Shown: piece after piece, positions 1-15,079 of the stretch
Position numbering within the stretch: position 1 is the first letter of the stretch
How the letters are laid out: each line of letters opens with the position of its first letter
Source: Giardia intestinalis
Taxonomy: Eukaryota
Direction: 5' to 3' (one strand)
NCBI GenBank assembly: GCA_000002435.2
Contig: CM018792.1
DNA: 64,000 nucleotides
Program-made: the position numbers and the translations under genes
The notes under the pieces: generated by a model
The model's database searches: none
Told to the model about the DNA's origin: nothing
Seen by the model: the letters and a program-made list of their open reading frames with translations, nothing else

Positions 1-1954
1 TCTCCCTCACAAGGAGCCTCGCACACTCTATGTAGCCGCTCTGCGCAGCGACTGTGAGAGCGGGCCATCCGTGATTGTTTTGCATGCCACCCTCTTTTTC
101 CACAAGTAATCTGACACAACCTGCATGACCATTCTTTGCAGCCCACATGAGGGCTGTCCATCCATCCCTCGATTGCACACAACTCTCCCTTTCCAAGAGT
201 AGCTTAGCACAGTCTGTATAACCCTGTTCTGCAGCAATCATAAGAGCAGTCCATTTGCTGTTATCCTGTATACCGCCTTCCCGTTCCAGGAGCAACTCGA
301 CGCAATCTCTATGGCCGTTCCCTGCTGCAGCCATAAGGGCGGTTTCCCCATCGTTATCCTGCATGCCAACCTCGTTCTTCAAAAGCAATTTGATACACTC
401 TAAATGGCCAGCACTTGCTGCAGACATGAGAGCCGTCCGCCCCTTGTCGCTCTTCATGCCGCTTTCCTTCTCTAGCAGGAGCTTAAGACAGTCTGCGTGG
501 CCAGTCCTTGCAGTATACATGAGGGCGGTCCATCCGTTGCTATCTTTCAGTCCCTTCTCTTTCTCCGCGAGCAGCTCCACGATCTCTGTGTATCCATATA
601 CCGCCGCCCTTATCAGAGCAGTTCCCTCGTATATCTTCCAGTCACCTACAAGTGCGCATCCCTTCATCTTCGTGCCCCCCTGGAGCGGTATGAGAGCCTT
701 CACGGCCTCCACGTCGTTTCTGTCGACAGCCCTCATGAGGTCGGTGGAGTCGTCCTCCTCTATTAGGTGCTTCTCTGGTTCTTCTGACTCCTCTGACTCC
801 TCCATTTCGTCTGTCTCGTCTGTCTCATCCGTCTCTGTTTTAATCTCCTGCATCTCTTCGAATAGCTTGGCAGCAACAGCATAGTGTCTCCTAATAGAGT
901 CCAATTTTGCGGCGCTATTAGTGGGATCCTTTTCGAGAGCTATCGTCTCGTCGTTGGCTCTATCCAGGGCAGCTGTAAAGGCTTCACGCATCTCCTTCAG
1001 TCTTGTGTCTTGGGCTTTCTGTTCATCAACAGAGATGCCAAGCCTCCGAATCAGATGAGCGAGCCCCTTGGCAGTCGGCCTCTCGGCGGGATCGAGGACG
1101 AGCATCTTCTCAAGGACGCTCCTTGCGAGGTCGTCTGCGATACCGCTCAGGTCCGGCCTCCACTCGGTGACGAAGACCTCTGCTGGCTCCTTGCCCCTCA
1201 GGAAGTCTGGCTTCCTCAGGGTGGCGAGCTCGTATGCGACGGCCCCGAGGCTCCAAACGGCGGACGCGGGGGTCACATCACCGCGGAGGAGTGTCTCGGG
1301 GGCCATGTACGCGGGGTCGCCAGCCTTCGCAGCTCCGCTCGATATGCCCTCGCAGAACCCGAAGTCTGCAAGAACAACACGCCGCCCGTCCCCAGCGAAC
1401 ATGATGTTGTCGGGCTCGAGAATAGCGCGGGGAAGCAGGTCGTCATCCACGTCTCCGCCGAGGCCGTGGAGATAGGCAAGGGCGCCAGCCAGCTGCCCCA
1501 GAAGGGAGAGGACCAGCTCGTTGGGGACAGACTCGTGAATGTCTCTGTGGTCGGTGATGAACTGCCGGAGGTCTCCGCAGCAGCGGTCTGTGACAACAAG
1601 GATCGTGTTGCCGTCTGTAAGTACCTGGTGGTATTTGAGAACGCCCGGGTGAGAGGCGCTTAGAAGAGCAGCCAGCCTACGCTTAATGGCATCCACACGA
1701 TGCTGGTCCAGACCATCAAGCTGGATCTTTCTCATAGTGAACTTTGGACGTTCGTTACTAGCATGGATAGTATAAAAGCCCCCTGTGCCTAACGGCTCGT
1801 CCTTGCATTCAAACAGCTTCTCGGGGTCGATCCCGAGGATGTCGCCTGTGCCCATAGTCCTTCCAAGGCCATCGCTTACGCCTCTACCGACGTCCCATAG
1901 AGTGCGTTCTGTGGGGGTCGAAGCAAAGGGATAAAGTCCGCAGTCAACAGCCAT
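1..1954 (-). CDS. NEK-family Ser/Thr kinase fused to C-terminal ankyrin repeats. The catalytic loop is degenerate, so it is probably a pseudokinase. The C-terminus runs off the window start.
   Basis: The ATG is at 1954-1952, preceded by an AT-rich initiator (aaaaatagca). Reverse-strand frame 1 (mod 3) stays open to position 1. The kinase motifs are GTGGFY, VLADFGFC (DFG), GDPAYMAPE and AVWSLGAVAYELATL. The catalytic loop reads LLPRAILEPDNIMF where HRDLKPEN is expected, so the catalytic Asp is lost. There is an acidic ETDETDETDEMEESEESEE linker. Then come at least 5 ankyrin repeats of the form DGWTALMxAAxxGHxxCVxLLLEKE. The ORF track omits this ORF because it is truncated by the window edge. 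Confidence 0.8.
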   Translation of the reverse strand, partial: MAVDCGLYPFASTPTERTLWDVGRGVSDGLGRTMGTGDILGIDPEKLFECKDEPLGTGGFYTIHASNERPKFTMRKIQLDGLDQHRVDAIKRRLAALLSASHPGVLKYHQVLTDGNTILVVTDRCCGDLRQFITDHRDIHESVPNELVLSLLGQLAGALAYLHGLGGDVDDDLLPRAILEPDNIMFAGDGRRVVLADFGFCEGISSGAAKAGDPAYMAPETLLRGDVTPASAVWSLGAVAYELATLRKPDFLRGKEPAEVFVTEWRPDLSGIADDLARSVLEKMLVLDPAERPTAKGLAHLIRRLGISVDEQKAQDTRLKEMREAFTAALDRANDETIALEKDPTNSAAKLDSIRRHYAVAAKLFEEMQEIKTETDETDETDEMEESEESEEPEKHLIEEDDSTDLMRAVDRNDVEAVKALIPLQGGTKMKGCALVGDWKIYEGTALIRAAVYGYTEIVELLAEKEKGLKDSNGWTALMYTARTGHADCLKLLLEKESGMKSDKGRTALMSAASAGHLECIKLLLKNEVGMQDNDGETALMAAAGNGHRDCVELLLEREGGIQDNSKWTALMIAAEQGYTDCAKLLLERESCVQSRDGWTALMWAAKNGHAGCVRLLVEKEGGMQNNHGWPALTVAAQSGYIECARLLVRE

Positions 1955-1999
1955 TGCTATTTTTAAATCCAGTCCTGATCTGCCTTTTGAAAGTGATTT

Positions 2000-3300
2000 T
2001 ACAGACTACTGTTCGAATGCGGTATCCAGTGTGATCTACTGGTGGTATGGCAGTACGCTCATCATGTTCCTCTTCTGCATGGCCATCGAGCGCCTCCTGA
2101 GACGCCTCAAGGAGAGAGGCATCACCTTCCTTGCTTATGCAGACGACATCATAGCGTTCCACGACGAGGCCTACCCAGCAGGCGTGATAACACAGCTGGC
2201 CATGGGCCTGACGATCAGGAGCGACAATGCAAGTCCACCATGGCGGGCGAGGAGGTGACCTTCCTCAGCCACCCGGTGTCCCCCACTCCTGCAAGCCTTA
2301 CCCCAAAGGCCATCGCAGGTGCTGAGACTGCCCTGAGGAAGATTGAGAACGCCCCCATAACCACCCACCAGAAGCTCATCCTGCTGTCACTCTGCGTGGT
2401 CCCGATGGTGAACTACGCCCCCCTGGTCGAGATAGCCTCGGACAAGGCGGACTACGAGGAGCTGACAGACATCGCACAAGGCTTCAGCACTAACCAACAG
2501 AAGCTGCGATCGCCTGGTCGACTTCCTGGCGTACCCGAAGGAGAAGGGCGGCCCGGGCCTGCTCATGCTGGGACTCTACCACGACGAGCTGCGGAGGGCA
2601 TGGGCCTCCCTGGACGTCAACAAGGGGGCCAGAGACCCGGTGGAGCTGTCGGTGGAAGGCCAGGCACTGCAAGGGAAGGGGGTCTACTTCAACCGCCTCC
2701 TCACGCATACACCAGCTTCCGGACAGAGCGGCGGCGTGCTGACCGAGGAGGAAAGGGCCCTGAAGCAGAGAGATGGCTCGATCATGGGGCAGACAAGAGG
2801 CACCTGCCCGGGCTGCCACACGGCGAGGACCCTCGACCACGAGGCACGACATGATCGTCGCGTGCCTGTGCCTCCGCGTCTCGGGGAAGTTCAACGCAGA
2901 GCTGGAAGTCAAGACCCACAGCCACCTCAGCGACCAGAACCAGAAGCCCGACACCTGGCTCGTTGACAAGTGCAGGGCAGTGGACGTGCGTGTCATCCAG
3001 CCCCGCCAGATGGACGCCTACTACAACGAGAAGGTCAAGAAGTACAGGGACGGGACGCTCCCGATCATCATGGGACGGACGGCTCCCTCCACCCCAGTCC
3101 AAGGGGCACCTCGAGGAGCTCCACGTGGACCTCTGTCCGGGCTGCCTTCGCTATCGCCTACATGGCTGCAGAGGCGAACGAGCACCCGACGAAGCTGGTC
3201 AGACGCGACCGGGCCGAAAGCCTGGCCACCCAGAGCGACCGCCTCCTGTCATCCTACTTCTGACAACCGAATGAGCCCATCCCCGGGACCCGACGACAAC
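2000..3300 (+). mobile_element. Dead, frameshifted relic of a non-LTR retrotransposon, GilM/GilT/GilD-like. It has the RT YADD motif, an RT thumb, a CCHC-like zinc finger and an R2-type REL endonuclease. The 5' end is truncated.
   Basis: Frame a (2031-2258) reads FLAYADDIIAF, the RT YXDD box. Frame b (~2240-2500) reads HQKLILLSLCVVPMVNYAPLVEIASDKADYEELTDIAQGF, RT-like. Frame c (2773-3100) reads CPGCH...H followed by KPDTWLVDKCRAVDVRVIQP...YYNEKVKKYRDG, the PD-(D/E)xK REL endonuclease motif of site-specific non-LTR elements. At least 3 frameshifts are needed to join these, and the flanking ORFs are R/P/G-rich junk. Confidence 0.65.
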
Positions 3301-4420
3301 GATCGAGAAGGGGCAATGACCGGACACACAACCGAGTTGAATCCCAACCAGGAGAGAACGCCCCGCTAGCTGCTGCTGATATACATGGACAGTATTGAGA
3401 ATGACAACAAAGACCAGAGCTTCACTCACCGTGAAGGGAGAGCAAGGAGAGGCACCCTAGTAGACCAGCGAGCCTGCAGGACGGCCTGATCTCCAAAAGG
3501 ACCTATGTGCACACCTAGATCGAGCACACACCCGCAGAACAGTCGAGGAACGCAGATAGCTCCTCCCGTCCACTACTGTGGTCATTATCATATTCCATAG
3601 CCAACCCTCGTCTCTGGACTAGTCAGGGACTGAGCAAGAGCTTACCCGTGAGATCTCTGGACCATACCTGCAGGCGAGGGCCCCAGCAGCACACCACTGG
3701 AAGCAACCGGTGGGTGGAGTAAATCATCATCACCGTGGTTAAGTTGCATGCCAGCCAGCCGCTCATGGTGCCAGCCACTCCCGGTACTGGGCCCTTCGCC
3801 ACAGAGTTCACCGGCTTCACTTCTGAGTCGGAAGGCCCGCTGAACGTACAGGTACATGATGAACCGCGGACGGGGACGGGAAGGATAATCTTTACTAGCC
3901 CGAGTCCTTGCTGTCGATCCTTCGAGGAAGCCGGCATGTCTCTCCGTGCCACAAGCCCGAGGGTCTCGTCCCGGGGCTCGTTGATCTGGGCAAGGGCCTG
4001 GACGTCCTTGAAGACCTCCGACCCACGAAACTCGGCGAGGTAGCACAGAACCACCGCCAACGCTATACCTGGAGGTGCTGCGAGTGGTTATGCAATGGAC
4101 AGGGCCCTGTTTTGTCTATAACTTGTCAGAACCAGCCAATCCCACAGCTGCAGAGGGGCGATGTTTAGCACACGGGGTCCGCAGTTCTGGCCTCTGCACA
4201 GCACTGTCGGTCACTCGCGGAGCCGCGGACACGCAGGGTGCGTTGCTGAGGACCGGGCATCCACCTGCGTATCGGCAGCCATGAGAGCCGGTGCTCGCCC
4301 AGACCGGAGGCTCCAGTAGCAGAGTCCGCTGACCAATACGCATCAACACGCTTGGTGCACTGGCCGAGACCTGCCGTGCCGTGCCTGGCAGACGCAGAGC
4401 GCAGGATGGCACTGGGACGC

Positions 4421-4427
4421 GTTTACT
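4421..4427 (-). promoter_or_regulatory. Giardia polyadenylation signal AGTAAAC (AGTRAAY), 9 nt after the stop of the VSP pseudogene
   Basis: The reverse complement of gtttact is AGTAAAC. It lies in the conserved VSP 3' end (acgcgtttactac...ctaagtctacgcc), which is also found at 10549-10586. Confidence 0.6.
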
Positions 4428-4435
4428 ACTTAAGT

Positions 4436-6547
4436 CTACGCCTTGCTTCGACAGAGGAACCACCGGCAGAGGAACCCGACGAGCCCCTCGACGATGACAA
4501 CAGCAACGACGATGCCTGCGATAGCCCCCGTGGAGAGGCCGCTCTTGTTTGTGTTCCTGCTATCCTTCATGAGATAGCAGAGGACAGGGCCAGTGTTGCC
4601 AGACGGGGGAGCGCAGCTCACGCAGCCATTGATACCAGTGACCCCATTGCTATTACCTTCGCAGAATGTGCACGCGCCTTCTCCCAATACAGTCTTGTAG
4701 TATCCTGTCGCACATACCTTACACGTTGTAGCTGCCCGTTGCATGTTTCACAGCTAGAATCACACTTTGTACATGTTTGGCTGCTTCCGATTTTTGCATA
4801 CCCATCTTTGCATGTCGTGCAAGTGCTTGAAGTAGTGCACTTTGCACAGCCATCAGAGCAAACCACAAGGTTAATACTACCGTCAATATAATAACCTGAA
4901 GCCATCAAAGTGCAAGTATCAGCGCCTGGTGCTGTTGTGCAGACACTCTTCCCAGGGAACTTGGTCGTTTCATAACAGTCCCCGTTTATACGAAGAAACC
5001 CATTGGTGCATGAGCTGCATGCGCCCTTGACAACATTTCCGGTCTTACAAGTGGCTGCGGCACGAGCAGTTGCTGAGGTACAGACCCCATTCTGAGGATA
5101 TTCTGTCCCCGCGGCGCACTCTGAACAATAGCTAGCTCCATCAATGGTTAGCCCACATGTTTTACGGGCACCACTACTTTGGCCTGTTGTGCATCCAGTT
5201 CCACAGGTGCCTTTGACTCCATCACTTTCGTACTTAAGTGCTCTTCCAGTGGGACATTCAGTGCAGTCATTAGCAGTACCTGCACTGCATGTCTTGCAGC
5301 TTTCGTGACACGGAGAGCAGGCATCACCATTTTTGTAAAATCCGTCTTTGCATATTTGACATTGCCCCTGATTATCACAGGCCTTACAGTTGGACACAGC
5401 ACACTTCTTGCAAGTTTGCTTTGCTCCTTCCGTTGCTCCGTAGTAATTCCCAACCTTGTTGCAGCTGTCTATGCACTGGCTCGCCGGGTGAGATAGTTTC
5501 CACTAGCATACTCTGTGCAGACCTCGTTCTCTTTGCCCTCGTTATTGCATGTCTTGCATCCAGGCGTCTTGCAATTACTTGCTGCTTCACACTTAGTTTC
5601 ATCAGCACTAAGTTTGTATCCTACTACATAAGTGGTGCATGTAATGAGGGCAGCCCCTGATTGACTAGTAACTAAGGCACACATGGCGCAATTGGCAATT
5701 CCGTCGGTGCTGTCATCCTTGGGGAAGAAGCCGTCTTTGCATTGGTCTTTTTGTACACATGATGTGTCTTCGCCTGTGGTTTTCAGATAGTTGTTACCAG
5801 TACACTTGATACATTTGATCTTCTTAGATTGCTAGTGATAGGTGCAGGTGTCACATTAGCAACGCCGCCATTAGGGCTATCACTGCAAGAAGCACACTTG
5901 TTGCCATTCTCAGAATCATCAACTGCAACGAACTTATTAGTGCTACCAGAATTACATTGGGCTTTATCTACGCACACGTTATCCTTGAGATACTTACTGA
6001 CTCCACACTTGGTACACGTTGCAACCTTGCCGGCCTCAGCGCCGGCTGTTGCGTCAGGGGCGCCGCACTCTGCGCAGTCAGCAATGCCCTTGTATGTGTT
6101 TCCGCCAGCTGTTATTGCTACTCCGGTCGTATAACTACATGCAACCACGGATTGCTCAGTATTTACCACTTCCGTGGGGATAAAGTATCCAGGAGCAGCC
6201 TCGGTGCATACTCAGCCACTAGCCACAAGGCAAAAGCTCTGCCCCGGCTTTCCGTCGTTGGGTTGGTAGCAGCCGTCCTTGTATTTAAAGGAGGTGCTTC
6301 CACATTGTGTGCATTTTCCGGCGCTATGTTACGGACAAAGCGTACTAGCTGGCGTTTGCCCAGCATTCGCACAGATCCCATCTACGGGAGCATAGTTGGC
6401 CCCATCATTGCATTCACTGCAATATTCACTGCCACCAATGGTGGCTCCGCACGTCTTGCAGCTCCCAGCACCACCTAATCCATTTGCTTCACATGCAGCC
6501 CATGTTAGCTGCAAGACAGCGCTAGCAAGTAAAAGTCTACCGAACAT
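4436..6547 (-). pseudogene. Variant-specific surface protein (VSP) pseudogene. It has at least 3 frameshifts and an in-frame stop, and its C-terminal tail reads CRSKA.
   Basis: A signal peptide sits at 6547 (MFGRLLLASAVLQLTWAAC). CXXC-rich pieces lie in ORFs 6329-6547, 5783-6169, 5469-5684, 4618-5397 and 4436-4744, which fall in reverse frames 1, 1, 2, 0 and 1. The last piece ends ...[32 protein letters not shown], a transmembrane helix followed by a CRGKA-like tail. Confidence 0.6.
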
Positions 6548-7698
6548 TGAGGTTGCTGATCAATGGCGGTCTGTAGGACGCAGCAACACGCACTTGAGGG
6601 GCACCCTTTCGCGGGGTCGACCCATTAAGTAATGCTCTCAATGTAAAGCCCGAGGCTCAGACGTACTACATGACGCCCTGCATGCCCACAAGAAAGTCCG
6701 ACGGCCTCGCGATACCGCCCGGCGTGCCTCACTCCCGTGAGAATGCCCACCCACACCCCTTCCTCACGCTATCCCTACACCACCATACATTCCTTCCTCC
6801 CTTCCTCCCTTCCTGCCTGGCTGTCCGGGTGTCCCTACCGTCCAACGCCTGACGGGAGACGATTCAAAAAATAGAAAAGGACCCCACGATTCCGGCTCCG
6901 TACTTTTCGCAAAAAATGGCAGATTAGCGCCTTGCATGGGCACGGAGGCCAATTTACGTTTTTTGCAAAAAATGGAAACTGAGCACCACGACAATAATAT
7001 ACTACTTACGTGACCAGAGCTGATTGCTTCCGAGGCCAGATTGCCGTCGCGATTGACGCAAGGCCCTAAGATAGTGAGTGCCCACTAGGTGCCAGGCAGC
7101 AGCCGGCCTCCAAGAGCTGGCTAGAAAAGAGAGAAATCCTAGAAGGCCCTGGGAAGAACCACATCGATGTCCGAAGGAAGTGAGGCATGAGGCCCTCTTC
7201 TCCCACCAGGATCCGAGGATATCCGAATTCCAGATTCTGGATTTGGATCTCAGATTCTGGGTCTTGCCAGAAGCAAGCGGGAGGTCCACCTGTCTAAAGC
7301 GGCAGCGGCTCGTACGGAAGATCTGTTCAGATAGCAGCTGGCAAGCTAACCTCGGAAATAATTTTGCGAATTAAAATGCCCCGCCCCTCCCTTCCTCTTC
7401 TGCCTCCAGGTCTGCCTGTGTGGCACATCACCCGTCCAGCACCAGGCTGGAGAGCAGGGGCGCGCTGATCAGCACAGGTCCGTGACGCAGGAGGCTCCCA
7501 TGGAGTGGTTCCATTTACAAGCTGAGCCCAGTGCGACTCCGGCTCAACGAGTCATCTCATCGTACCGCTAGTTGCCCTTCACGTTGTGCTTCAGACACGG
7601 GAATCTCAGTATGCGCACACGGATTCGCTAGCAGTTAATGTACTCGGTTGCAAGAAACCTTTTCGTTCTGTTGCAAAGGTGCGCCGGAAAATTCAGTG

Positions 7699-9777
7699 AT
7701 GTCGGTATTGTTTCTCTTCGGTCTAGCGGTTATCGGCTTAGCGGCCCAGCCGGGCGATGGCTCTACTCCGTACAAGAATGACTACTACGTTGCCTGTACA
7801 GGCTATAAGCCTAACTGCGTGCAAGACAAGTGCGTCATGTTCGGGCCAAGGACAACGTTGTGCACCGAATGCTTATCTGGAAAAGTGCCTATCAATGGTG
7901 CATGTGTAGGAAAAGACGATTCCCCTGCTGATCCCTCTATTGATCCAACTGTTTGTGTTACGGAATCAATTACAGGTAGTGACGCGTCACAACGGTGCAC
8001 ATCGTGTACTGGTGGCACCAAAGCTAGTGAAGCAGGAGGCTCGACCTATTTCTTATTCTACGGAGGTTGTTACAATAAAAATGAGTGGCCAGGTACGCAC
8101 ATCTGTGAGACTGTTTCAGATGGTGTTTGCAATACTTGTGCGGTTGCGCACGGTTTTGTTTTTGCAAACGACAGGAATTCTCAGGAGAAATGTATTCTGT
8201 GCGGGGACACTGCTGGTTTCAATGATAAAGTAGGCATAGCAGGATGTTCGTCTTGCATTTCCCTAGAATCTCCTTCCACCACAAGTGATAATACTAAACA
8301 GACTGCTGTCCGGTGTACATCGTGTGTGGATCCAACCAAAGCACCAATCGATGATGCATGCGCAGATACCACCTCCCATGTTTGCCAGAACGGATACTGC
8401 ACTCACTGTGCATCCACTCACGTTTGCTATAAGGGTGGGTGCTATAGCAAAGAGGGAAGTGGCGCATCTATATGTGCGTCAGACAACCTAATGGATATCA
8501 GTGGTTACTCTGCTTGCAAACAGTGTGTCAATCCCAACGAAGTTCCCCACAATGGCAACTGCAGACTGTCAAGCGAGTTTGGGGCCTGCAATAAGGACAG
8601 TACTGCTGGGAAGTGTACAGCATGTAATAGATCGTCCCCCGATCGTAGAGTCTTTTTCTATGAGGGCGGATGCTATACCACGAACGACCTCCTCGGGAGA
8701 ACTATCTGCACAGAGGCCTCTGGCGGAACATGCACCACTTGCAATGAAGCACAAGGATTCTTTGCGAAGGACTCGACGTGCAGCTGGTGTGATAGTACTA
8801 CAGCTGGTGCTATTGAAGATTGCGCTAGCTGTAGTATCAAGTCTGATGGGTCCAATAAGCTTGTGTGCACTAGCTGCAAGAATGATAAGTATGTCTCTGT
8901 AAGTGGCACTTCTTGTGTCACTTCTTGTTCTGCATCAGAATCTGGTAGCTGTGAAACTGGTACGTGTGTATGCAAATGTAACGTAGGTACCTATTTTGAT
9001 AACAATAGCAATAGCTGTATCCAGTGCGACTCAGCATGTCTGGAGTGTGACGGTTCAGGTCCTGACCACTGCACAAAGTGTTCTTCGGGAAAGTACACCA
9101 AGGTGGACGACTCTGGAACGGTTACATGTGTCGACGCATCTGAATGTGGCGATGGATACTATGCGGATCCAGAAGAGCTCCAGTGTGCCACATGTGGAAT
9201 TGAAAGCTGTCAAGCATGCACCCCTAAGGATAACAACCTCGTGTGCACACGGTGCTCCCCCGGACTTGTCTCCGTCGATGGTTTCTCGTGCCCACTCACA
9301 TGCACGGAGCTGAATCAGAGAGAGGAGGATGGAAAGTGCGTCTGTGCAGAGGGCTTCGAGCCCAGTAGTGATGGCGCATGCATAGCTAAGAACACCTGTC
9401 CATCAGACGCCACAGGGTGCTCGAGCTGCAGCGCAAGTGGCGAGTGCCTCTCATGTGCGGACAGCAATCACAACGTCCAGCCGAGCAAGAGATCCTGCGC
9501 CTCAGGCTGTCCAAGCGGATCAGAATCAGTCGGCTCTCTCTGCATATGCATGGAGGGGTACACCCTCAGGGGTGACACATGCGTCTCTCAGACCAGGAAG
9601 GCCAGCTCCGGCTCCACGACGGTCACCGTGGCAGTCGTTGTCTCCCTTCTCATTATAGCGGCCGTCGCCCTCACATGCTGGCTCGTCCTGCGGAGGCGGC
9701 GGGGATCGAAGCCGATCTCGAAGAAGAGGGCAGCGGCCGAGAACGTGGAGCTCATGGGGACGGTGGACGAGTTCTAG
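7699..9777 (+). CDS. High-cysteine membrane protein (HCMP). It is VSP-like and CXXC-rich, with EGF-like modules and a single transmembrane helix, but it lacks the CRGKA tail.
   Basis: The ORF track gives 7648-9777. The likely true start is the second Met at 7699 (MSVLFLFGLAVIGLAAQPG, a signal peptide). There are dozens of CXXC/CXC motifs, an FLFYGGCY motif, GKCVCAEGFEPSSDGAC (EGF-like), a C-terminal transmembrane helix (VAVVVSLLIIAAVALTCWLVL) and a 30-aa basic cytoplasmic tail. An AGTGAAT poly(A) signal sits at 9809-9815. Confidence 0.75.
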   Translation: MSVLFLFGLAVIGLAAQPGDGSTPYKNDYYVACTGYKPNCVQDKCVMFGPRTTLCTECLSGKVPINGACVGKDDSPADPSIDPTVCVTESITGSDASQRCTSCTGGTKASEAGGSTYFLFYGGCYNKNEWPGTHICETVSDGVCNTCAVAHGFVFANDRNSQEKCILCGDTAGFNDKVGIAGCSSCISLESPSTTSDNTKQTAVRCTSCVDPTKAPIDDACADTTSHVCQNGYCTHCASTHVCYKGGCYSKEGSGASICASDNLMDISGYSACKQCVNPNEVPHNGNCRLSSEFGACNKDSTAGKCTACNRSSPDRRVFFYEGGCYTTNDLLGRTICTEASGGTCTTCNEAQGFFAKDSTCSWCDSTTAGAIEDCASCSIKSDGSNKLVCTSCKNDKYVSVSGTSCVTSCSASESGSCETGTCVCKCNVGTYFDNNSNSCIQCDSACLECDGSGPDHCTKCSSGKYTKVDDSGTVTCVDASECGDGYYADPEELQCATCGIESCQACTPKDNNLVCTRCSPGLVSVDGFSCPLTCTELNQREEDGKCVCAEGFEPSSDGACIAKNTCPSDATGCSSCSASGECLSCADSNHNVQPSKRSCASGCPSGSESVGSLCICMEGYTLRGDTCVSQTRKASSGSTTVTVAVVVSLLIIAAVALTCWLVLRRRRGSKPISKKRAAAENVELMGTVDEF

Positions 9778-9949
9778 CTCTGCGGCTGGCGGGCCGCAGC
9801 TCATAGAGAGTGAATGCTTAGGGCCCGGATCATCCCCTGGACTGACGCCCAGCCCCTTGCAAGCGCCTTCCGGACCACCAGATCGTGGCCTGCCCCCAGC
9901 GGGTGGGTGCCACCGGCCTCTCAGTGCACAGGCCTCAGTTAGGGTGCAA

Positions 9950-10350
9950 GCAGGAAGAATCGCATCGAGTGCTGTGCCATCGGAGCCCGTCTCCGGTGCA
10001 TTCGGAGGCCTCGGGATAAGCTCGTGTTCGACTCTTGGCCAGTCCGAGGGCGGTTGTAGACAGCAAGCAGGGGCTCCTCTCCACCGGTGCAGAGGGACGA
10101 CCAGGGGCCCAGTGCAATCGTCGGTACCTGTGCCTCCGTGTCTCGGGGAGTGCAACGCAAGCTGGAGATCAGGCCAGCCCGGCGGCCAGAGCAGAGCAGA
10201 GCCCGACACAAACGCAAGGCGGTGGGCGTGGGTGTCATCCAGCAACTGCATGGATACCACAGCGAGGAGGTCAAGAAGTGCAGGGACGACCTGAGTTTCA
10301 TTCATCCTGGCGGCAGGCCAAGGAGAGGCACACTCGCGGCTCGTATGGCC
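9950..10350 (+). mobile_element. Second, shorter and more degenerate copy of the 3' end of the same non-LTR retroelement (zinc-finger and REL-endonuclease region)
   Basis: 10113-10320 (…IVGTCASVSRGVQRKLEI…KRKAVGVGVIQQLHGYHSEEVKKCRDD) aligns with 2851-3060 (…IVACLCLRVSGKFNAELEV…KCRAVDVRVIQPRQMDAYYNEKVKKYRDG). The alternate frames also align: GRGCHPATAWIPQRGGQEVQGRP with GRACHPAPPDGRLLQREGQEVQGRD. Nucleotide homology is visible by eye (…gtgcctccgtgtctcggggag… against …gtgcctccgcgtctcggggaag…). Confidence 0.55.
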
Positions 10351-10552
10351 CTAAGCAGGCCGGATCCTGGAGGCCGACCGGGGACCGCGCAGGGCTCTGG
10401 ATGCATCACTGGAGAGGAGCTCCTCGTTACATTATCCACGACCAGCCATCGTTTCCGGACGGCCAGGAAAGAGCGAGGATTACCCGCATGATCTCTGGAT
10501 CGCGCTCAGATAGCTCCAGCAGCACATCTACACGAGCTACATAAAGTAACGC

Positions 10553-10559
10553 GTTTACT
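10553..10559 (-). promoter_or_regulatory. Polyadenylation signal AGTAAAC, about 20 nt downstream of the VSP stop
   Basis: The reverse complement of gtttact. It lies within the conserved VSP 3' end, which here carries an extra 'ctaagtacacag' insertion compared with the copy at 4421. Confidence 0.55.
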
Positions 10560-10579
10560 ACCTAAGTACACAGCTAAGT

Positions 10580-13500
10580 CTACGCCTTCCCGCGGCAGAG
10601 GAACCACCAGCAAAGGAATCCGACAAGACCACCTACAATAACAATCACAGCAACAGAGATACCGGCTATGGCCCCCGTGCTGAGGCCGCTCTTGTTGACG
10701 CTTCCACCAGTGCCTACTTCTGATTCTAAGCATATGACTGAACTGCCAGATGACGACACACATTGCTTGCATCCAGAGATCTTCTCTGAGCACTTCTTGC
10801 ATAACCCAGCAGTGGTATCGTCACCGTTTTCCTTGTAATACCCAGTGGCACAGGTCTTGCACTTGTCAGCCGCATCTGCAGTCGAGCACGTAGCACAAGT
10901 AGAATGACATTCTGCACAGTTGCCATCACTTGCTGCTAAGCCATTGGCACATGTCTGACACTTACCATTGCCTCCCTGTGCATTACTACACACCTGCTTA
11001 CCAGGCTGTCTATCTGTCTGATAGCAGCCGCCGTCCTTGAGGAAGTAACCCTCATTGCATTTTGTACAGGCCCCACTTGTGATTGTTGCACAGAAGGCTA
11101 CTCGTGAACTGGCCGCACAGTTGCCGTTCAAGGGGGCTTGTTGAGTGTTCTTGCACTTTGAGCAATATGCAGTTCCTCCTATCTGAGCCCCACACTCTGC
11201 GCATCCATCGTTTGTAGAACTCACGCTGCACTGGTCCATGCACGTGCCCCCATTGACAGGAGTATTAGTATCTGTATACTGAAGCATTTTCCCAACAGGA
11301 CAGGCCGTGCACTGATTGTTGGCCGGTCCAACGCACTCAGCGCACTCAGGGTTGCATGCCTTACACTTCTTGTCAGTATCTCCGTAGTATCCGCTGATGG
11401 CTGTGCAGTCAGGTACGCATTGGTTTGTAGGGGTGAGGTAGTCGCCATCATTACATTTAGTGCAGATTTCGTTGTCTGTTTTGGGGTTGTCACAGGTCTT
11501 ACAGTTGGGAGTATTGCACGGCGCTTCTGGGTCCTTGGTGCACTGCTTCGTGTCAGTGTTGATGGTGTAGCCCGGACGGCACGTCTTGCACTGCTGGGCG
11601 TTGCCCTCCACGCAGGTCTCACAGCCCTCGACGTTGCACGGCGCTTCTGGGTCCTTGGTGCACTGCTTCGTGTCAGTGTTGATGGTGTAGCCCGGACGGC
11701 ACGTCTTGCACTGCTGGGCGTTGCCCTCCACGCAGGTCTCACAGCCCTCGACGTTGCACGGCGCTTCTGGGTCCTTGGTGCACTGCTTCGTGTCAGTGTT
11801 GATGGTGTAGCCCGGACGGCACGTCTTGCACTGCTGGGCGTTGCCCTCCACGCAGGTCTCACAGCCCTCGACGTTGCACGGCGCTTCTGGGTCCTTGGTG
11901 CACTGCTTCGTGTCAGTGTTGATGGTGTAGCCCGGACGGCACGTCTTGCACTGCTGGGCGTTGCCCTCCACGCAGGTCTCACAGCCCTCGACGTTGCACG
12001 GCGCTTCTGGGTCCTTGGTGCACTGCTTCGTGTCAGTGTTGATGGTGTAGCCCGGACGGCACGTCTTGCACTGCTGGGCGTTGCCCTCCACGCAGGTCTC
12101 ACAGCCCTCGACGTTGCACGGCGCTTCTGGGTCCTTGGTGCACTGCTTCGTGTCAGTGTTGATGGTGTAGCCCGGACGGCACGTCTTGCACTGCTGGGCG
12201 TTGCCCTCCACGCAGGTCTCACAGCCCTCGACGTTGCACGGCGCTTCTGGGTCCTTGGTGCACTGCTTCGTGTCAGTGTTGATGGTGTAGCCCGGACGGC
12301 ACGTCTTGCACTGCTGGGCGTTGCCCTCCACGCAGGTCTCACAGCCCTCGACGTTGCACGGCGCTTCTGGGTCCTTGGTGCACTGCTTCGTGTCAGTGTT
12401 GATGGTGTAGCCCGGACGGCACGTCTTGCACTGCTGGGCGTTGCCCTCCACGCAGGTCTCACAGCCCTCGACGTTGCACGGCGCTTCTGGGTCCTTGGTG
12501 CACTGCTTCGTGTCAGTGTTGATGGTGTAGCCCGGACGGCACGTCTTGCACTGCTGGGCGTTGCCCTCCACGCAGGTCTCACAGCCCTCGACGTTGCACG
12601 GCGCTTCTGGGTCCTTGGTGCACTGCTTCGTGTCAGTGTTGATGGTGTAGCCCGGACGGCACGTCTTGCACTGCTGGGCGTTGCCCTCCACGCAGGTCTC
12701 ACAGCCCTCGACGTTGCACGGCGCTTCTGGGTCCTTGGTGCACTGCTTCGTGTCAGTGTTGATGGTGTAGCCCGGACGGCACGTCTTGCACTGCTGGGCG
12801 TTGCCCTCCACGCAGGTCTCACAGCCCTCGACGTTGCACGGCGCTTCTGGGTCCTTGGTGCACTGCTTCGTGTCAGTGTTGATGGTGTAGCCCGGACGGC
12901 ACGTCTTGCACTGCTGGGCGTTGCCCTCCACGCAGGTCTCACAGCCCTCGACGTTGCACGGCGCTTCTGGGTCCTTGGTGCACTGCTTCGTGTCAGTGTT
13001 GATGGTGTAGCCCGGACGGCACGTCTTGCACTGCTGGGCGTTGCCCTCCACGCAGGTCTCACAGCCCTCGACGTTGCACGGCGCTTCTGGGTCCTTGGTG
13101 CACTGCTTCGTGTCAGTGTTGATGGTGTAGCCCGGACGGCACGTCTTGCACTGCTGGGCGTTGCCCTCCACGCAGGTCTCACAGCCCTCGACGTTGCACG
13201 GCGCTTCTGGGTCCTTGGTGCACTGCTTCGTGTCAGTGTTGATGGTGTAGCCCGGACGGCACGTCTTGCACTGCTGGGCGTTGCCCTCCACGCAGGTCTC
13301 ACAGCCCTCGACGTTGCACGGCGCTTCTGGGTCCTTGGTGCACTGCTTCGTGTCAGTGTTGATGGTGTAGCCCGGACGGCACGTCTTGCACTGCTGGGCG
13401 TTGCCCTCCACGCAGGTCTCACAGCCCTCGACGTTGCACGGCGCTTCTGGGTCCTTGGTGCACTGCTTCGTGTCAGTGTTGATGGTGTAGCCCGGACGGC

Positions 13501-14044
13501 ACGTCTTGCACTGCTGGGCGTTGCCCTCCACGCAGGTCTCACAGCCCTCGACGTTGCACGGCGCTTCTGGGTCCTTGGTGCACTGCTTCGTGTCAGTGTT
13601 GATGGTGTAGCCCGGACGGCACGTCTTGCACTGCTGGGCGTTGCCCTCCACGCAGGTCTCACAGCCCTCGACGTTGCACGGCGCTTCTGGGTCCTTGGTG
13701 CACTGCTTCGTGTCAGTGTTGATGGTGTAGCCCGGACGGCACGTCTTGCACTGCTGGGCGTTGCCCTCCACGCAGGTCTCACAGCCCTCGACGTTGCACG
13801 GCGCTTCTGGGTCCTTGGTGCACTGCTTCGTGTCAGTGTTGATGGTGTAGCCCGGACGGCACGTCTTGCACTGCTGGGCGTTGCCCTCCACGCAGGTCTC
13901 ACAGCCCTCGACGTTGCACGGCGCTTCTGGGTCCTTGGTGCACTGCTTCGTGTCAGTGTTGAGGGTGTAGCCCGGGAAGCATGTGTCCTTCCCGCTGTCC
14001 TTTGCCAGCACGGTTGCACAAACTAGGAGAAATCCTACCAACAT
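10580..14044 (-). CDS. Variant-specific surface protein (VSP) with a CRGKA tail and a 20-copy array of a 40-aa cysteine-rich repeat
   Basis: The C-terminus reads …[35 protein letters not shown]. The body is CXXC-rich. The signal-peptide start MLVGFLLVCATVLA is at 14044. The ORF track extends in-frame to 14350, but that extension is not VSP-like. The repeat unit is GYTINTDTKQCTKDPEAPCNVEGCETCVEGNAQQCKTCRP. Confidence 0.8.
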   Translation of the reverse strand: MLVGFLLVCATVLAKDSGKDTCFPGYTLNTDTKQCTKDPEAPCNVEGCETCVEGNAQQCKTCRPGYTINTDTKQCTKDPEAPCNVEGCETCVEGNAQQCKTCRPGYTINTDTKQCTKDPEAPCNVEGCETCVEGNAQQCKTCRPGYTINTDTKQCTKDPEAPCNVEGCETCVEGNAQQCKTCRPGYTINTDTKQCTKDPEAPCNVEGCETCVEGNAQQCKTCRPGYTINTDTKQCTKDPEAPCNVEGCETCVEGNAQQCKTCRPGYTINTDTKQCTKDPEAPCNVEGCETCVEGNAQQCKTCRPGYTINTDTKQCTKDPEAPCNVEGCETCVEGNAQQCKTCRPGYTINTDTKQCTKDPEAPCNVEGCETCVEGNAQQCKTCRPGYTINTDTKQCTKDPEAPCNVEGCETCVEGNAQQCKTCRPGYTINTDTKQCTKDPEAPCNVEGCETCVEGNAQQCKTCRPGYTINTDTKQCTKDPEAPCNVEGCETCVEGNAQQCKTCRPGYTINTDTKQCTKDPEAPCNVEGCETCVEGNAQQCKTCRPGYTINTDTKQCTKDPEAPCNVEGCETCVEGNAQQCKTCRPGYTINTDTKQCTKDPEAPCNVEGCETCVEGNAQQCKTCRPGYTINTDTKQCTKDPEAPCNVEGCETCVEGNAQQCKTCRPGYTINTDTKQCTKDPEAPCNVEGCETCVEGNAQQCKTCRPGYTINTDTKQCTKDPEAPCNVEGCETCVEGNAQQCKTCRPGYTINTDTKQCTKDPEAPCNVEGCETCVEGNAQQCKTCRPGYTINTDTKQCTKDPEAPCNVEGCETCVEGNAQQCKTCRPGYTINTDTKQCTKDPEAPCNTPNCKTCDNPKTDNEICTKCNDGDYLTPTNQCVPDCTAISGYYGDTDKKCKACNPECAECVGPANNQCTACPVGKMLQYTDTNTPVNGGTCMDQCSVSSTNDGCAECGAQIGGTAYCSKCKNTQQAPLNGNCAASSRVAFCATITSGACTKCNEGYFLKDGGCYQTDRQPGKQVCSNAQGGNGKCQTCANGLAASDGNCAECHSTCATCSTADAADKCKTCATGYYKENGDDTTAGLCKKCSEKISGCKQCVSSSGSSVICLESEVGTGGSVNKSGLSTGAIAGISVAVIVIVGGLVGFLCWWFLCRGKA
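11515..13980. repeat. Tandem array of 20 units of 120 bp, 100% identical at the nucleotide level (11521-13920), plus a diverged partial 21st unit. It lies in the coding sequence of the VSP.
   Basis: Every pair of 60-nt sequence lines from 11521 to 13920 is letter-for-letter identical (gcgcttctgggtccttggtgcactgcttcg…gacgttgcacg). The unit at 13921-13980 differs (gagggtgtagcccgggaagc). Confidence 0.95.
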
Positions 14045-15079
14045 TAGCCGGAGTTCGTGTGCTACTGCTTTTTCATCAGGCTGATGTGTTGCCGCGAGCA
14101 GTGAGAGGCAACCGCTCTTGCTCTCTTGATCAGTTGGACTGGAGGAGGACGAGATAGGAGCACACCCATCGGAGGCTAGTTGATAGTGCAGTTCCCCTTG
14201 ACTTCGATAGGAACAGGATCGGTGAGGGCCAGACTCAGATCGCACCTCTCTTGTGGAATGATTGTTCGGGGTGCACTCCTGTACATTGCTGTCGCTGTGC
14301 TCGTTGGCTTCCTCTGCAGGGGCAGGGCGTCCCGGTAGTAAATGCGTCACATTACATCTGCTCGCTCCATGGCCTCTGCGGCGCTATTCTATAAAGCTGC
14401 TGATTAGAGATCTCTAAGCGAATGCTCTCACTGGTCACAAGGGAGCAGAAGATAGACCCCAATAACTTTCGCTTCTCATCTGACCACCACGAGCCTGTTG
14501 CTTTCCATCCACGCCTCTCTTCCCCCGGACCGGCCTCGTGCTCCTTCGTCCAGCGCACCATATTGGAGTACACAGCCTCCTGTGCTGCCTGGCCGCAGGG
14601 TCCGCTGACGTGTGGGCCTACTCGCCCCAGACCCCATTGCAGAGCCAAAGGCTTCAGCGGAGAGACGTGCTCAGGTGCACCGCCAGACAGTGTCTCGGCG
14701 CCCCGTGACCACCTGGATCCATCCCCGGAGGTAACAGATGCAGCTCCGCCCTATGAGGGGGAGAGCGCCGGCGGCTGACTCCGCGACTGCAGTGCTCCAC
14801 ATAGGGACAGCCGGGCCATCCTCTGGCTCTCTGGACGGCAAGCGTGTGCCGAGCAGGAGGCGTCGGTGGACCGTGGCCCTCCACAGACTGGGTAGGTGGC
14901 CAGTGCCGGGGCTCGTCAACCATGGTGAGCTAGCTGATCGGGTGTCTCCCTACCGCATGGCTGGGACGTACAGAATAGCTCTGGACAGAACGCCAGACGC
15001 GAAGGAGCCGTCTCGCACAGGGCAGCCCCACGCTGCGGCCTATTTTCATTTAACCCCGCCTCGCTTGCCCGCGCCCCGG

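What the first reader, a model, noticed from the sequence alone, without database searches (positions are those of the whole stretch)
2000..10350. Two relic copies of the same non-LTR retroelement, each lying 3' of a minus-strand VSP gene
A frameshifted RT(YADD)-CCHC-REL-endonuclease element lies at 2000-3300. A 5'-truncated and more decayed copy of its 3' part lies at 9950-10350. The 3' end of each copy points at the conserved 3' end of a VSP gene (4436 and 10580 respectively). Progressive 5' truncation is the signature of non-LTR retrotransposition. The repeated pairing of element 3' end with VSP 3' end suggests one of two things. Either a segmental duplication copied a retroelement-VSP module, or the retroelement homology acts as a substrate for recombination that shuffles the VSP repertoire.
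Basis: partly seen in the sequence, partly recalled or inferred. Interest (0 to 1): 0.65.

Follow-up and report, generated by a model that had tools for sequence, protein, structure and literature searches.

The report
Dead retrotransposon relics beside VSP genes
Two decayed, unrelated-in-age fragments of Giardia's extinct R2-like retrotransposon family (GilD type) sit next to surface-antigen (VSP) genes in the reference strain WB, which is a real but already documented association rather than a duplicated retroelement-VSP module.

Summary
The window is Giardia intestinalis WB. Copy 1 is 2056-3733 (+): an RT(YADD)/broken CCHC/REL-endonuclease ORF remnant ending at 3263, then a 3' UTR and a 200-bp terminal inverted-repeat arm. 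Copy 2 is 10117-~10552 (+): an endonuclease fragment joined to a 3' UTR/terminal-repeat remnant, about 70-79% identical to every other copy. Both belong to the dead Giardia RT/endonuclease family; all relatives found are Giardia fragments and the nearest solved structure is R2.

Copy 1's 5' "truncation" is a secondary 1,855-bp deletion at an 11-bp microhomology, because the orthologous locus in isolate DH keeps the 5' half. The two copies are not a duplicated element-VSP module. Nothing aligns between element and VSP apart from the universally conserved VSP tail. The spacing differs (702 bp against direct abutment), and copy 2 is equidistant from all copies.

Copy 2's 3' end is fused back-to-back with the VSP poly(A) signal. 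The same junction recurs at two VSPs in DH, and in deleted form in assemblage B. This suggests either old VSP-tail-specific integration or co-duplication with VSP tails. GilD relics beside VSPs are already published. Low novelty.

The parts
2..1954 (-). NEK kinase/ankyrin gene (context). Its 5' end faces copy 1.
   Evidence: 100% identical to the WB 'Kinase, NEK' protein P0119; 94.2% nucleotide identity to the DH gene in L004.
2056..2066 (+). Deletion junction. 11-bp (10/11) microhomology CGCTCA(T/G)CATG between the NEK upstream spacer and the RT region of the element.
   Evidence: window 1-2066 matches L004 6651-8716 and window 2056-3692 matches L004 10572-12292. L004 carries 1,855 bp between these two blocks.
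2056..3733 (+). Relic copy 1 of the dead RT/endonuclease (GilD-type) family. Corresponds to consensus positions about 1402 to the end.
   Evidence: 84-88% identity to other copies by blastn, 91.7% to the consensus.
2056..3263 (+). Frameshifted ORF remnant. RT motifs (YADD 2136-2147), CCHC remnant (CPGCH 2805-2819, last Cys lost), REL-endonuclease motifs RHD 2842-2850, KPD 2944-2952, D-V 2980-2994, KKY 3037-3051, stop 3261-3263.
   Evidence: Pfam RVT_1 gives E = 7e-5 on the window ORF alone and E = 6e-26 on the family consensus. R2 protein 9nl2 is the best solved-structure match.
3523..3723 (+). Right arm of the family's roughly 200-bp terminal inverted repeat. The element's own AGTAAA signal is at 3719-3724. 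The left arm was lost in the 5' deletion.
   Evidence: inverted-repeat profile E = 1.7e-62.
3734..4435 (.). 3' flank of the VSP pseudogene. Unrelated to the element.
   Evidence: 99.1% identical to DH L004 2839-2137; no hit from either element profile.
4436..6547 (-). VSP pseudogene. Multiple frameshifts, tail ...FLCRSKA, poly(A) signal at 4421-4427.
7699..9777 (+). Cysteine-rich membrane protein gene (HCMP-like, not a VSP tail). Its stop codon lies 340 bp upstream of copy 2.
   Evidence: ORF translation.
10117..10288 (+). Relic copy 2, endonuclease-domain fragment (consensus 2283-2481). Decayed motifs VGVGVIQ at 10222-10242 and VKKCRD at 10270-10287.
   Evidence: 69-73% identity to all copies, profile E = 1.8e-25.
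10288..10552 (+). Relic copy 2, 3' UTR plus terminal-repeat remnant (consensus about 2854-3136), joined to the endonuclease fragment by a deletion of about 360-370 bp. Ends ...ATAAAGTAAC.
   Evidence: family D4.
10544..10559 (.). Back-to-back 3' ends, AAGTAAC-GCG-TTTACT. The relic's terminal signal-like motif and the reverse complement of the VSP AGTAAAC poly(A) signal (10553-10559) are separated by about 3 nt.
   Evidence: The same junction occurs at two VSPs in DH L005.
10580..14044 (-). VSP gene (tail CRGKA) containing a 20.5 x 120-bp tandem repeat at 11514-13975.

Best explanation
Both segments are inert, decayed fragments of the extinct Giardia non-LTR retrotransposon family that WB annotation calls 'reverse transcriptase/endonuclease'. 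The family is GilD-type: R2-like, with zinc finger, RT, CCHC and REL-endonuclease. The two fragments arrived independently and at different times.

Copy 1 (2056-3733) belongs to the younger set of roughly 3.1-kb units. Each such unit carries a roughly 200-bp inverted copy of its own 3' end at its 5' end. Copy 1 was present at this NEK-adjacent locus before the WB and DH lineages separated. In the WB lineage it then lost 1.86 kb, including its left repeat and 5' half, through a microhomology-mediated deletion. It also carries smaller deletions of the same kind.

Copy 2 (10117-10552) is a much older relic. It is reduced to an endonuclease fragment plus 3' UTR/terminal repeat, and its 3' terminus is fused tail-to-tail to the poly(A) signal of the VSP gene.

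The pairing with VSP 3' ends is one instance of the known clustering of this dead family in gene-poor VSP islands. It is not a duplicated module inside this window. Neither relic can encode a functional protein. The sequence relationships are shown by the tools. That the relics have no present function is inferred.
For: - Source: the window is WB C6.
- Family: only Giardia RT/endonuclease fragments match the reconstructed ORF, at most 76% identity, all frameshifted. The consensus ORF hits RVT_1 at E = 6e-26. The best solved-structure match is R2, E = 7e-12, with collinear CCHC/RHD/KPD/D-V/K..Y motifs.
- Extents: defined by blastn and nhmmer against eight other copies.
- Inverted repeat.
- 5' deletion of copy 1: microhomology junction, the longer DH orthologue, a shared private 11-bp deletion, and 98-99% identical non-coding flanks.
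- Internal deletions: a 38-bp deletion bounded by an 8-bp repeat GACCACGA, and a 22-bp deletion.
- Independence of the copies: copy 2 is 69-73% identical to every copy in the endonuclease segment and 75-79% in the 3' UTR/repeat, with no preference for copy 1. No flank homology exists between the two intervals.
- Junction: the copy 2/VSP junction is shared with DH L005.
[quoted passage not shown] Remnant RT genes lie between WB VSP pairs (PMC7000408). Retrotransposon relics flank VSP pairs (bioRxiv 10.1101/2022.03.07.483299).
Against: - No GilD or Genie 2 reference sequence could be obtained, so the family name rests on elimination and on published descriptions.
- The DH contig ends inside the right repeat, and the VSP pseudogene lies elsewhere and inverted on that contig. 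Orthology of the whole locus is therefore incomplete.
- Element identity between WB and DH is 92.6%, lower than that of the flanks (98-99%). This needs gene conversion or fast decay to explain.
- How copy 2 acquired its 5' edge is unknown.
- Absence of function (small RNAs, antisense transcription, recombination) was not tested.
Confidence: 0.85

Rival explanations
1. One reading: a segmental duplication copied one retroelement-VSP module, giving the two pairs seen in the window.
For: The two pairs have the same relative orientation, with the element 3' end facing the VSP 3' end. The two regions align over the endonuclease segment and the VSP tail.
Against: - The interval between element and VSP does not align. 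It is 702 bp of unrelated DNA in pair 1 against direct abutment in pair 2.
- The VSP bodies align only over the tail, which is conserved in all VSPs.
- Copy 2 is no closer to copy 1 (70.9%) than to copies in another isolate (69-73%).
- Copy 1 is 92% identical to the young consensus, so the two copies differ in age.
Confidence: 0.04
2. An older lineage of this R2-like element integrated site-specifically, tail-to-tail, immediately after the conserved VSP 3' end (…GTAGTAAACGCGT). The multicopy VSP tail would have served as its target, as rDNA does for R2. Copy 2 would be one such insertion.
For: - The junction is identical at three VSP tails: window 10553, and L005 at about 1905 and about 8150.
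- An assemblage B copy has its terminal repeat fused to a tail-less minus-strand VSP pseudogene.
- VSP tails without a relic diverge from each other exactly after AGTAAACGCGT.
- Copy 2's 3' part does not cluster with the L005 relics to the exclusion of other copies, as independent insertions would predict.
- REL-endonuclease elements are typically site-specific (established knowledge).
Against: - Only 3 of 7 VSP tails in the sample carry the junction, and two of those lie in one locus.
- The younger units and two older relics (L003 11642-12029, L004 8715-8983) are not at VSP tails.
- As I recall, Burke et al. 2002 judged Genie 2 not site-specific. This could not be checked.
- The sample is far too small.
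Confidence: 0.3
3. A single ancient relic next to one VSP tail was spread through the VSP family. The VSP tail and its 3' flank would have been co-duplicated or gene-converted together. Copy 2 would then be inherited with its VSP rather than inserted there.
For: - Alignments between the window VSP and both L005 VSPs run uninterrupted across the junction: 10375-10718 against L005 2086-1762 and 8009-8308, 73-75%.
- The junction sequence is the same in all three.
- Adam et al. report that 3' flanks of tail-to-tail identical VSP pairs are shared for 318-559 nt beyond the stop codon (PMC2996952). This is about the length of the relic 3' UTR plus repeat.
Against: - The internal deletions of the three relics have different breakpoints.
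- Copy 2 is not closer to the L005 relics (76-78%) than to young copies (75-79%).
Confidence: 0.35
4. The relics are functional. They would act as homology tracts that drive recombination and shuffle VSPs, or as sources of read-through antisense VSP RNA.
For: - A WB/DH structural difference has its breakpoint exactly at copy 1's 3' terminus, 3733/3734.
- RT remnants are found at synteny breaks (PMC3091692).
- Copy 2 is oriented so that read-through transcription would be antisense to the VSP.
Against: - No promoter or transcript evidence is available.
- Copy 2 retains about 440 bp at about 70-79% identity, a poor substrate for homologous recombination.
- No inverted or direct partner for either relic exists within the window.
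- The DH contig ends in the repeat, so the apparent breakpoint may be an assembly artefact.
Confidence: 0.1

Closest known systems
GilD (Arkhipova & Morrison 2001), probably the same as Genie 2 (Burke, Malik, Rich & Eickbush 2002), of Giardia lamblia WB
   Same: - The family consists of dead copies with frameshifts.
- It carries microhomology-mediated internal deletions.
- It lies in interstitial, gene-poor sites next to VSP genes (PMC2861651).
- Its terminal inverted repeats are about 160-200 bp here. From memory, Genie 2 copies carry inverted repeats of up to 172 bp.
   Different: No difference was demonstrated, and these two copies are most likely part of the family as originally described. 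Direct alignment to the deposited GilD/Genie 2 sequences could not be run. The back-to-back fusion of old relic 3' ends with the VSP poly(A) signal is not mentioned in the papers I could read.
R2-type (REL-endonuclease) non-LTR retrotransposons
   Same: - A single ORF with N-terminal C2H2 zinc finger(s), RT, a CCHC motif and a PD-(D/E)XK-like REL-endonuclease.
- R2 proteins are the best solved-structure matches (9nl2, E = 7e-12).
- No poly(A) tail at the 3' junction.
   Different: - Only about 25-30% identity, confined to the RT.
- No rDNA target.
- The assemblage A units carry an inverted copy of their own 3' end in place of about 2.1 kb of 5' ORF.
GilM/GilT (Genie 1) telomere-associated Giardia retrotransposons
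   Same: Same host and the same overall RT-CCHC-REL-endonuclease architecture.
   Different: - GilM is 5,474 bp, encodes an RT and lies in subtelomeric arrays (PMC7000408). The window relics are interstitial, broken and solitary.
- Two unnamed proteins, P0190 and P0191, are 29% identical to the family consensus, are encoded on contigs of about 5 kb, and may be GilM/GilT. This identification is unverified.
VSP inverted pairs with remnant RT genes or retrotransposon relics between or around them (Adam 2010; Xu 2020; Rodriguez-Walker et al. 2022 preprint)
   Same: Relics of this family lie between or beside VSPs. DH L005 is a tail-to-tail pair with relics between the genes. DH L006 is a head-to-head pair with a relic between them.
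   Different: The two VSPs in this window are not a pair. They are on the same strand and unrelated outside the tail, and a cysteine-rich membrane protein gene lies between them.

Membership tests
Non-LTR retrotransposon with REL-endonuclease (R2-like architecture) | Reverse transcriptase domain with Y/FxDD | tested here: met
   YADD at 2136-2147. RVT_1 gives E = 7e-5 (23 bits, below the cut-off) on the truncated window ORF and E = 6e-26 (91.9 bits) on the family consensus.
Non-LTR retrotransposon with REL-endonuclease (R2-like architecture) | CCHC motif between RT and endonuclease | tested here: met
   The family consensus and P0001 read CPGC-x7-H-x3-C. The window copy keeps CPGCH...H but lost the last Cys in a 38-bp deletion.
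Non-LTR retrotransposon with REL-endonuclease (R2-like architecture) | PD-(D/E)XK-type REL-endonuclease motifs downstream of CCHC | tested here: inconclusive
   RHD, KPD, (I/V)DV and K..KY lie in the expected order and align with the R2 protein 9nl2 C-terminus. That sub-alignment alone is not significant (4.3 bits, i-Evalue 87).
Non-LTR retrotransposon with REL-endonuclease (R2-like architecture) | No LTRs; insertion hallmarks (target-site duplication, defined 5' and 3' junctions) | tested here: inconclusive
   No direct terminal repeats were found. The family has inverted terminal repeats instead. Copy 1's 5' junction was destroyed by the deletion, so a target-site duplication cannot be assessed. 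One DH unit is flanked by a 429-bp direct duplication.
GilD / Genie 2 (dead Giardia family) | All copies defective (frameshifts, stops, deletions) | tested here: met
   All assemblage A hits are fragments of at most 595 aa with frame changes. The window copy spans three reading frames.
GilD / Genie 2 (dead Giardia family) | Microhomology-mediated internal deletions | tested here: met
   An 11-bp (10/11) microhomology at the 1,855-bp deletion, and an 8-bp repeat at the 38-bp deletion. The published description is in PMC2861651.
GilD / Genie 2 (dead Giardia family) | Located in gene-poor regions next to VSP genes, not at telomeres | tested here: met
   Window: the VSP pseudogene lies 702 bp from copy 1 and a VSP abuts copy 2. 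A VSP lies within about 3 kb in L003, L004, L005, L006 and L020. L002, L007 and L008 have no adjacent VSP.
GilD / Genie 2 (dead Giardia family) | Terminal inverted repeats (Genie 2: up to 172 bp, recalled from memory, not verified) | tested here: met
   Arms of 160-200 bp occur in L002, L003, L005 and L008, with one arm each in L001, L004, L006 and L007. The window copy keeps only the right arm, 3523-3723.
GilD / Genie 2 (dead Giardia family) | Sequence identity to the deposited GilD/Genie 2 reference | not testable with these tools
   PMC64710 and the Burke 2002 paper are not held. No Giardia nucleotide collection can be searched.
GilM/GilT telomeric retrotransposons | Intact ORF, units of about 5.5 kb, head-to-tail subtelomeric arrays | tested here: not met
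   The relics are solitary and broken, lying between a NEK gene and a VSP pseudogene and between a cysteine-rich protein gene and a VSP. The window otherwise carries housekeeping genes.
   Only the endonuclease/3' UTR pieces and the generic VSP tail align. Spacing is 702 bp against 0 bp. Copy 2 is equidistant from all copies.
Site-specific REL-endonuclease element targeting the VSP 3' end (hypothesis) | Same junction at independent target copies, and most insertions at the target | tested here: inconclusive
   The same junction occurs at 3 of 7 VSP tails sampled, plus a deleted version in assemblage B. Young units and two old relics lie elsewhere.

The most novel reading that the evidence does not exclude
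An early lineage of the GilD/Genie 2 family may have been a site-specific element. Its target would have been the conserved end of VSP genes, with insertion tail-to-tail about 3 nt after the VSP poly(A) signal. The conserved 3' flanks of many VSPs, including those shared by tail-to-tail VSP pairs, would then be the 3' UTR and terminal repeat of such insertions. These inverted relic ends could have seeded the inverted VSP duplications. Relatives with ORFs of up to 1,548 aa in assemblage B would mean the family is much less decayed there than in WB.
Probability: 0.22. Interest if true: 0.55.

Novelty: already known. Interest (0 to 1): 0.25.

Why it matters
As it stands the finding matters little. 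It re-finds two copies of a retrotransposon family that was described in this same reference strain in 2001-2002 and whose proximity to VSP genes is already in print.

The follow-up does give useful corrections:
- Apparent 5' truncation in this family can be a secondary microhomology deletion rather than incomplete reverse transcription.
- The two relics differ in age and origin.

One lead is worth a genome-wide test. Old relic 3' ends are fused back-to-back to VSP poly(A) signals at the same nucleotide in different loci and isolates. If this is general, it would explain why the family sits beside VSPs, either by target specificity or by co-duplication. It could also explain the unexplained conserved 3' flanks and roughly 2.5-3 kb spacers of tail-to-tail VSP pairs, which bears on how the antigen repertoire expands.

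Tried and rejected
- Literature: Arkhipova & Morrison 2001 (DOI and PMC64710) and Burke 2002 are not held. Searches for 'Genie 2' found nothing relevant.
- WB sequence left of the window: look-ups with the window's HCMP-like protein, the WB NEK protein P0119 and the ORF 2773-3369 all returned 'not on record'. Whether an inverted copy of the VSP pseudogene lies upstream of the NEK gene is therefore unknown.
- Metagenome scan: a 17-mer from the VSP tail gave 11 contigs with no element homology, so there was no usable Giardia data and no genome-wide test.
- Idea that the terminal repeat derives from the VSP coding tail: rejected. Local alignment scores are no better than shuffles.
- Idea that 3734-3900 is a decayed VSP tail: no blast or profile support, so dropped.
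- Exact 16-bp palindrome AGTAAACGCGTTTACT: absent from the window and from all loci. The junction is only near-palindromic, AAGTAAC-GCG-TTTACT.
- Rfam scan of 1-15000 at E <= 0.1: no RNA family.
- Protein-level search for copy 2: not significant. Only nucleotide-level searches detect it.
- Orientation bias across the sampled loci: relic 3' ends face a VSP tail in 5 cases and a VSP head in 2. This is too few to call.
Full report
**Source and setting**

Seven of eight window proteins are exact matches to Giardia intestinalis WB C6 proteins (KAE83043xx) on a 2.76-Mb contig. The region of the finding contains, in order:
- a minus-strand NEK kinase gene (2-1954);
- relic copy 1;
- a frameshifted minus-strand VSP pseudogene (4436-6547, tail FLCRSKA);
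- a plus-strand cysteine-rich membrane protein gene (7699-9777);
- relic copy 2;
- a minus-strand VSP (10580-14044, tail CRGKA) carrying a 20.5 x 120-bp tandem repeat.

**Check of the observation**

A self-comparison gives two matches and nothing else:
- 2854-3052 against 10117-10288, 70.9% over 203 columns, E = 6e-19, same strand;
- 4431-4500 against 10575-10644, 80%, which is the VSP tail.

Three-frame translation of 1954-3500 shows the following, spread over three frames:
- MFLFCMAIERLL...FLAYADDIIAF (RT);
- CPGCH...H (CCHC remnant);
- RHD, KPD, VDVRV and KKYRD (REL-endonuclease-like);
- a stop at 3263.

A reconstructed 417-aa product matches only Giardia proteins. These are annotated 'Reverse transcriptase/endonuclease, putative' or hypothetical. 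All are fragments of at most 595 aa, and the best is 76% identical. No other copy exists in the 64-kb window.

**Family anatomy from related loci**

I fetched one metagenomic copy (L001), seven copies from isolate DH, assemblage AII (L002-L008), and one from an assemblage B isolate (L020). The assemblage A copies share a unit of about 3.1 kb, 88-93% identical to one another.

The first 160-200 bp of this unit are an inverted copy of its last 160-200 bp. The outer end reads ...GGTGGAGTAAA. From memory, this matches the 'inverted repeats up to 172 bp' reported for Genie 2, but I could not verify that.

The consensus ORF has a C2H2 finger, an RT (RVT_1, E = 6e-26), CCHC and REL-endonuclease motifs. 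Its best solved-structure match is R2 (9nl2, E = 7e-12).

Assemblage B relatives are 76% identical and have far longer ORFs: P0189 is 1,108 aa and P0201 is 1,548 aa. Every assemblage A copy begins at about residue 704-724 of P0201. The assemblage A unit is therefore itself a 5'-deleted derivative.

**Copy 1**

- Extent: it aligns with all other copies from 2056 to 3692-3723, covering consensus positions 1402 to the end at 91.7% identity.
- 3' end: its right repeat arm is 3523-3723, and its terminal sequence GGAGTAAATCATCATCAC ends at 3733.
- 5' edge: this is not a reverse-transcription stop. Window 1-2066 matches DH L004 6651-8716, and window 2056-3692 matches L004 10572-12292. The 11 shared bases are a 10/11 microhomology, CGCTCA(T/G)CATG.
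- What WB lost: L004 holds 1,855 bp between the two blocks. This comprises spacer, an older inverted relic (8715-8983), the left repeat arm and the 5' half of the unit.
- Orthology: copy 1 and the L004 copy alone share an 11-bp deletion. The non-coding flanks are 98.2% and 99.1% identical.
- Conclusion: WB lost this segment by a microhomology-mediated deletion.
- Smaller deletions: a 38-bp deletion bounded by the 8-bp repeat GACCACGA removed the last Cys of CCHC, and there is also a 22-bp deletion.

**Copy 2**

The family profile hits 10117-10288 (consensus 2283-2481, E = 1.8e-25) and 10287-10525 (consensus 2854-3136, E = 2e-9). The repeat finder independently pairs 10288-10334 with 3412-3458.

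Copy 2 is therefore an endonuclease fragment joined by a deletion of about 360-370 bp to the 3' UTR and terminal repeat. It ends at about 10552. 9950-10116 shows no homology.

Copy 2 is 69-73% identical to every copy in the endonuclease segment and 75-79% in the 3' UTR/repeat, with no preference for copy 1. It is an older, independent relic.

**Relation to the VSPs**

- Pair 1: 702 bp (3734-4435) separate the element terminus from the stop codon of the VSP pseudogene. This DNA has no element homology and is 99% identical to the flank of the DH VSP pseudogene.
- Pair 2: the relic terminus meets the VSP poly(A) signal directly...ATAAAGTAAC-GCG-TTTACTACCTAAG... at 10541-10566.
- Between the pairs: the two intervals share nothing except the generic VSP tail.
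- Verdict: the idea of a duplicated module within the window is rejected.

The junction of pair 2 recurs at both VSPs of DH L005. There, older relics with RT, endonuclease and 3' UTR pieces in collinear order end at the VSP tails. In assemblage B L020 the terminal repeat is fused to a tail-less VSP pseudogene. VSP tails without a relic diverge from each other right after AGTAAACGCGT.

Two readings remain open:
- site-specific tail-to-tail integration by an older lineage;
- co-duplication of VSP tail plus relic.

Pairwise identities do not separate them.

Younger units are not tied to VSP tails. Their 3' neighbours are:
- VSP tails in 2 cases;
- VSP heads in 2 cases;
- other genes in 3 cases.

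**Comparison with what is known**

- RT remnants between WB VSP pairs are tabulated by Xu et al. (PMC7000408).
- Relics around VSP pairs, and a role for transposition in VSP expansion, are proposed in bioRxiv 10.1101/2022.03.07.483299.
- RT genes at synteny breaks, together with VSPs, NEKs and HCMPs, are reported in PMC3091692.
- Adam et al. describe tail-to-tail pairs with 2.4-3.2 kb spacers and shared 3' flanks of 318-559 nt, without explanation (PMC2996952).

The finding is therefore a correct re-identification of known GilD-type relics in the reference genome.

**Verdict**

- Novelty is low.
- The one lead not found in the papers I could read is the nucleotide-precise back-to-back fusion of old relic 3' ends with VSP poly(A) signals. 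It needs a genome-wide test that these tools could not provide.

Noticed in passing
L020 1-3462 (assemblage B, AHHH01000232.1); proteins P0189, P0201, P0203: The family that is 'dead' in assemblage A has much longer ORFs in assemblage B material. P0201 is 1,548 aa on a 5,019-bp metagenomic contig, with only a local double frameshift in the endonuclease domain. All assemblage A copies lack the first roughly 700 residues.
   Followed up: partly
L005 3017-3445 and 6516-6942 (DH AHGT01000066.1): A 3.07-kb unit (3449-6515) is flanked by a 429-bp direct duplication, 97.2% identical, of an older, oppositely oriented relic. This is far longer than usual target-site duplications.
   Followed up: no
window 3733/3734 versus L004 2839/2840: In the DH contig the VSP pseudogene and its flank lie on the other side of the NEK gene and are inverted. 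The breakpoint coincides exactly with the 3' terminus of copy 1. The DH contig ends inside the right repeat arm, so inversion and inverted duplication cannot be distinguished.
   Followed up: partly
window 1-1953 and 4436-6534 versus 1954-2066 and 3733-4435: Between WB and DH the coding parts are more diverged than the adjacent non-coding DNA. NEK is 94.2% and the VSP pseudogene 94.8% identical, against 98.2% and 99.1% for the flanks. This suggests gene conversion with paralogues in the coding parts.
   Followed up: no
window 11514-13975 (-): The VSP at 10580-14044 contains 20.5 nearly perfect (99%) copies of a 120-bp (40-aa) repeat, CNVEGCETCVEGNAQQCKTCRPGYTINTDTKQCTKDPEAP.
   Followed up: no
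window 6904-6931 and 6960-6987: A 28-bp motif, TTTTYGCAAAAAATGG..., occurs twice 56 bp apart in the spacer between the head of the VSP pseudogene and the cysteine-rich protein gene. It may be a duplicated A-rich initiator-like element (family D8).
   Followed up: no
L006 8719-13458 (DH AHGT01000075.1): A head-to-head VSP pair whose arms are 89.5% identical has a 5'-truncated unit of this family (9878-11267) between the two gene starts. This matches the pairs with a remnant RT gene between them tabulated for WB by Xu et al..
   Followed up: partly
proteins P0190 and P0191 (ENA/Logan contigs of about 5 kb): Two intact ORFs of 1,055-1,134 aa with RT, CCHC and REL-endonuclease motifs. They are 56% identical to each other and 29% to the family consensus, and may be GilM and GilT. 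Their organism of origin was not established.
   Followed up: no
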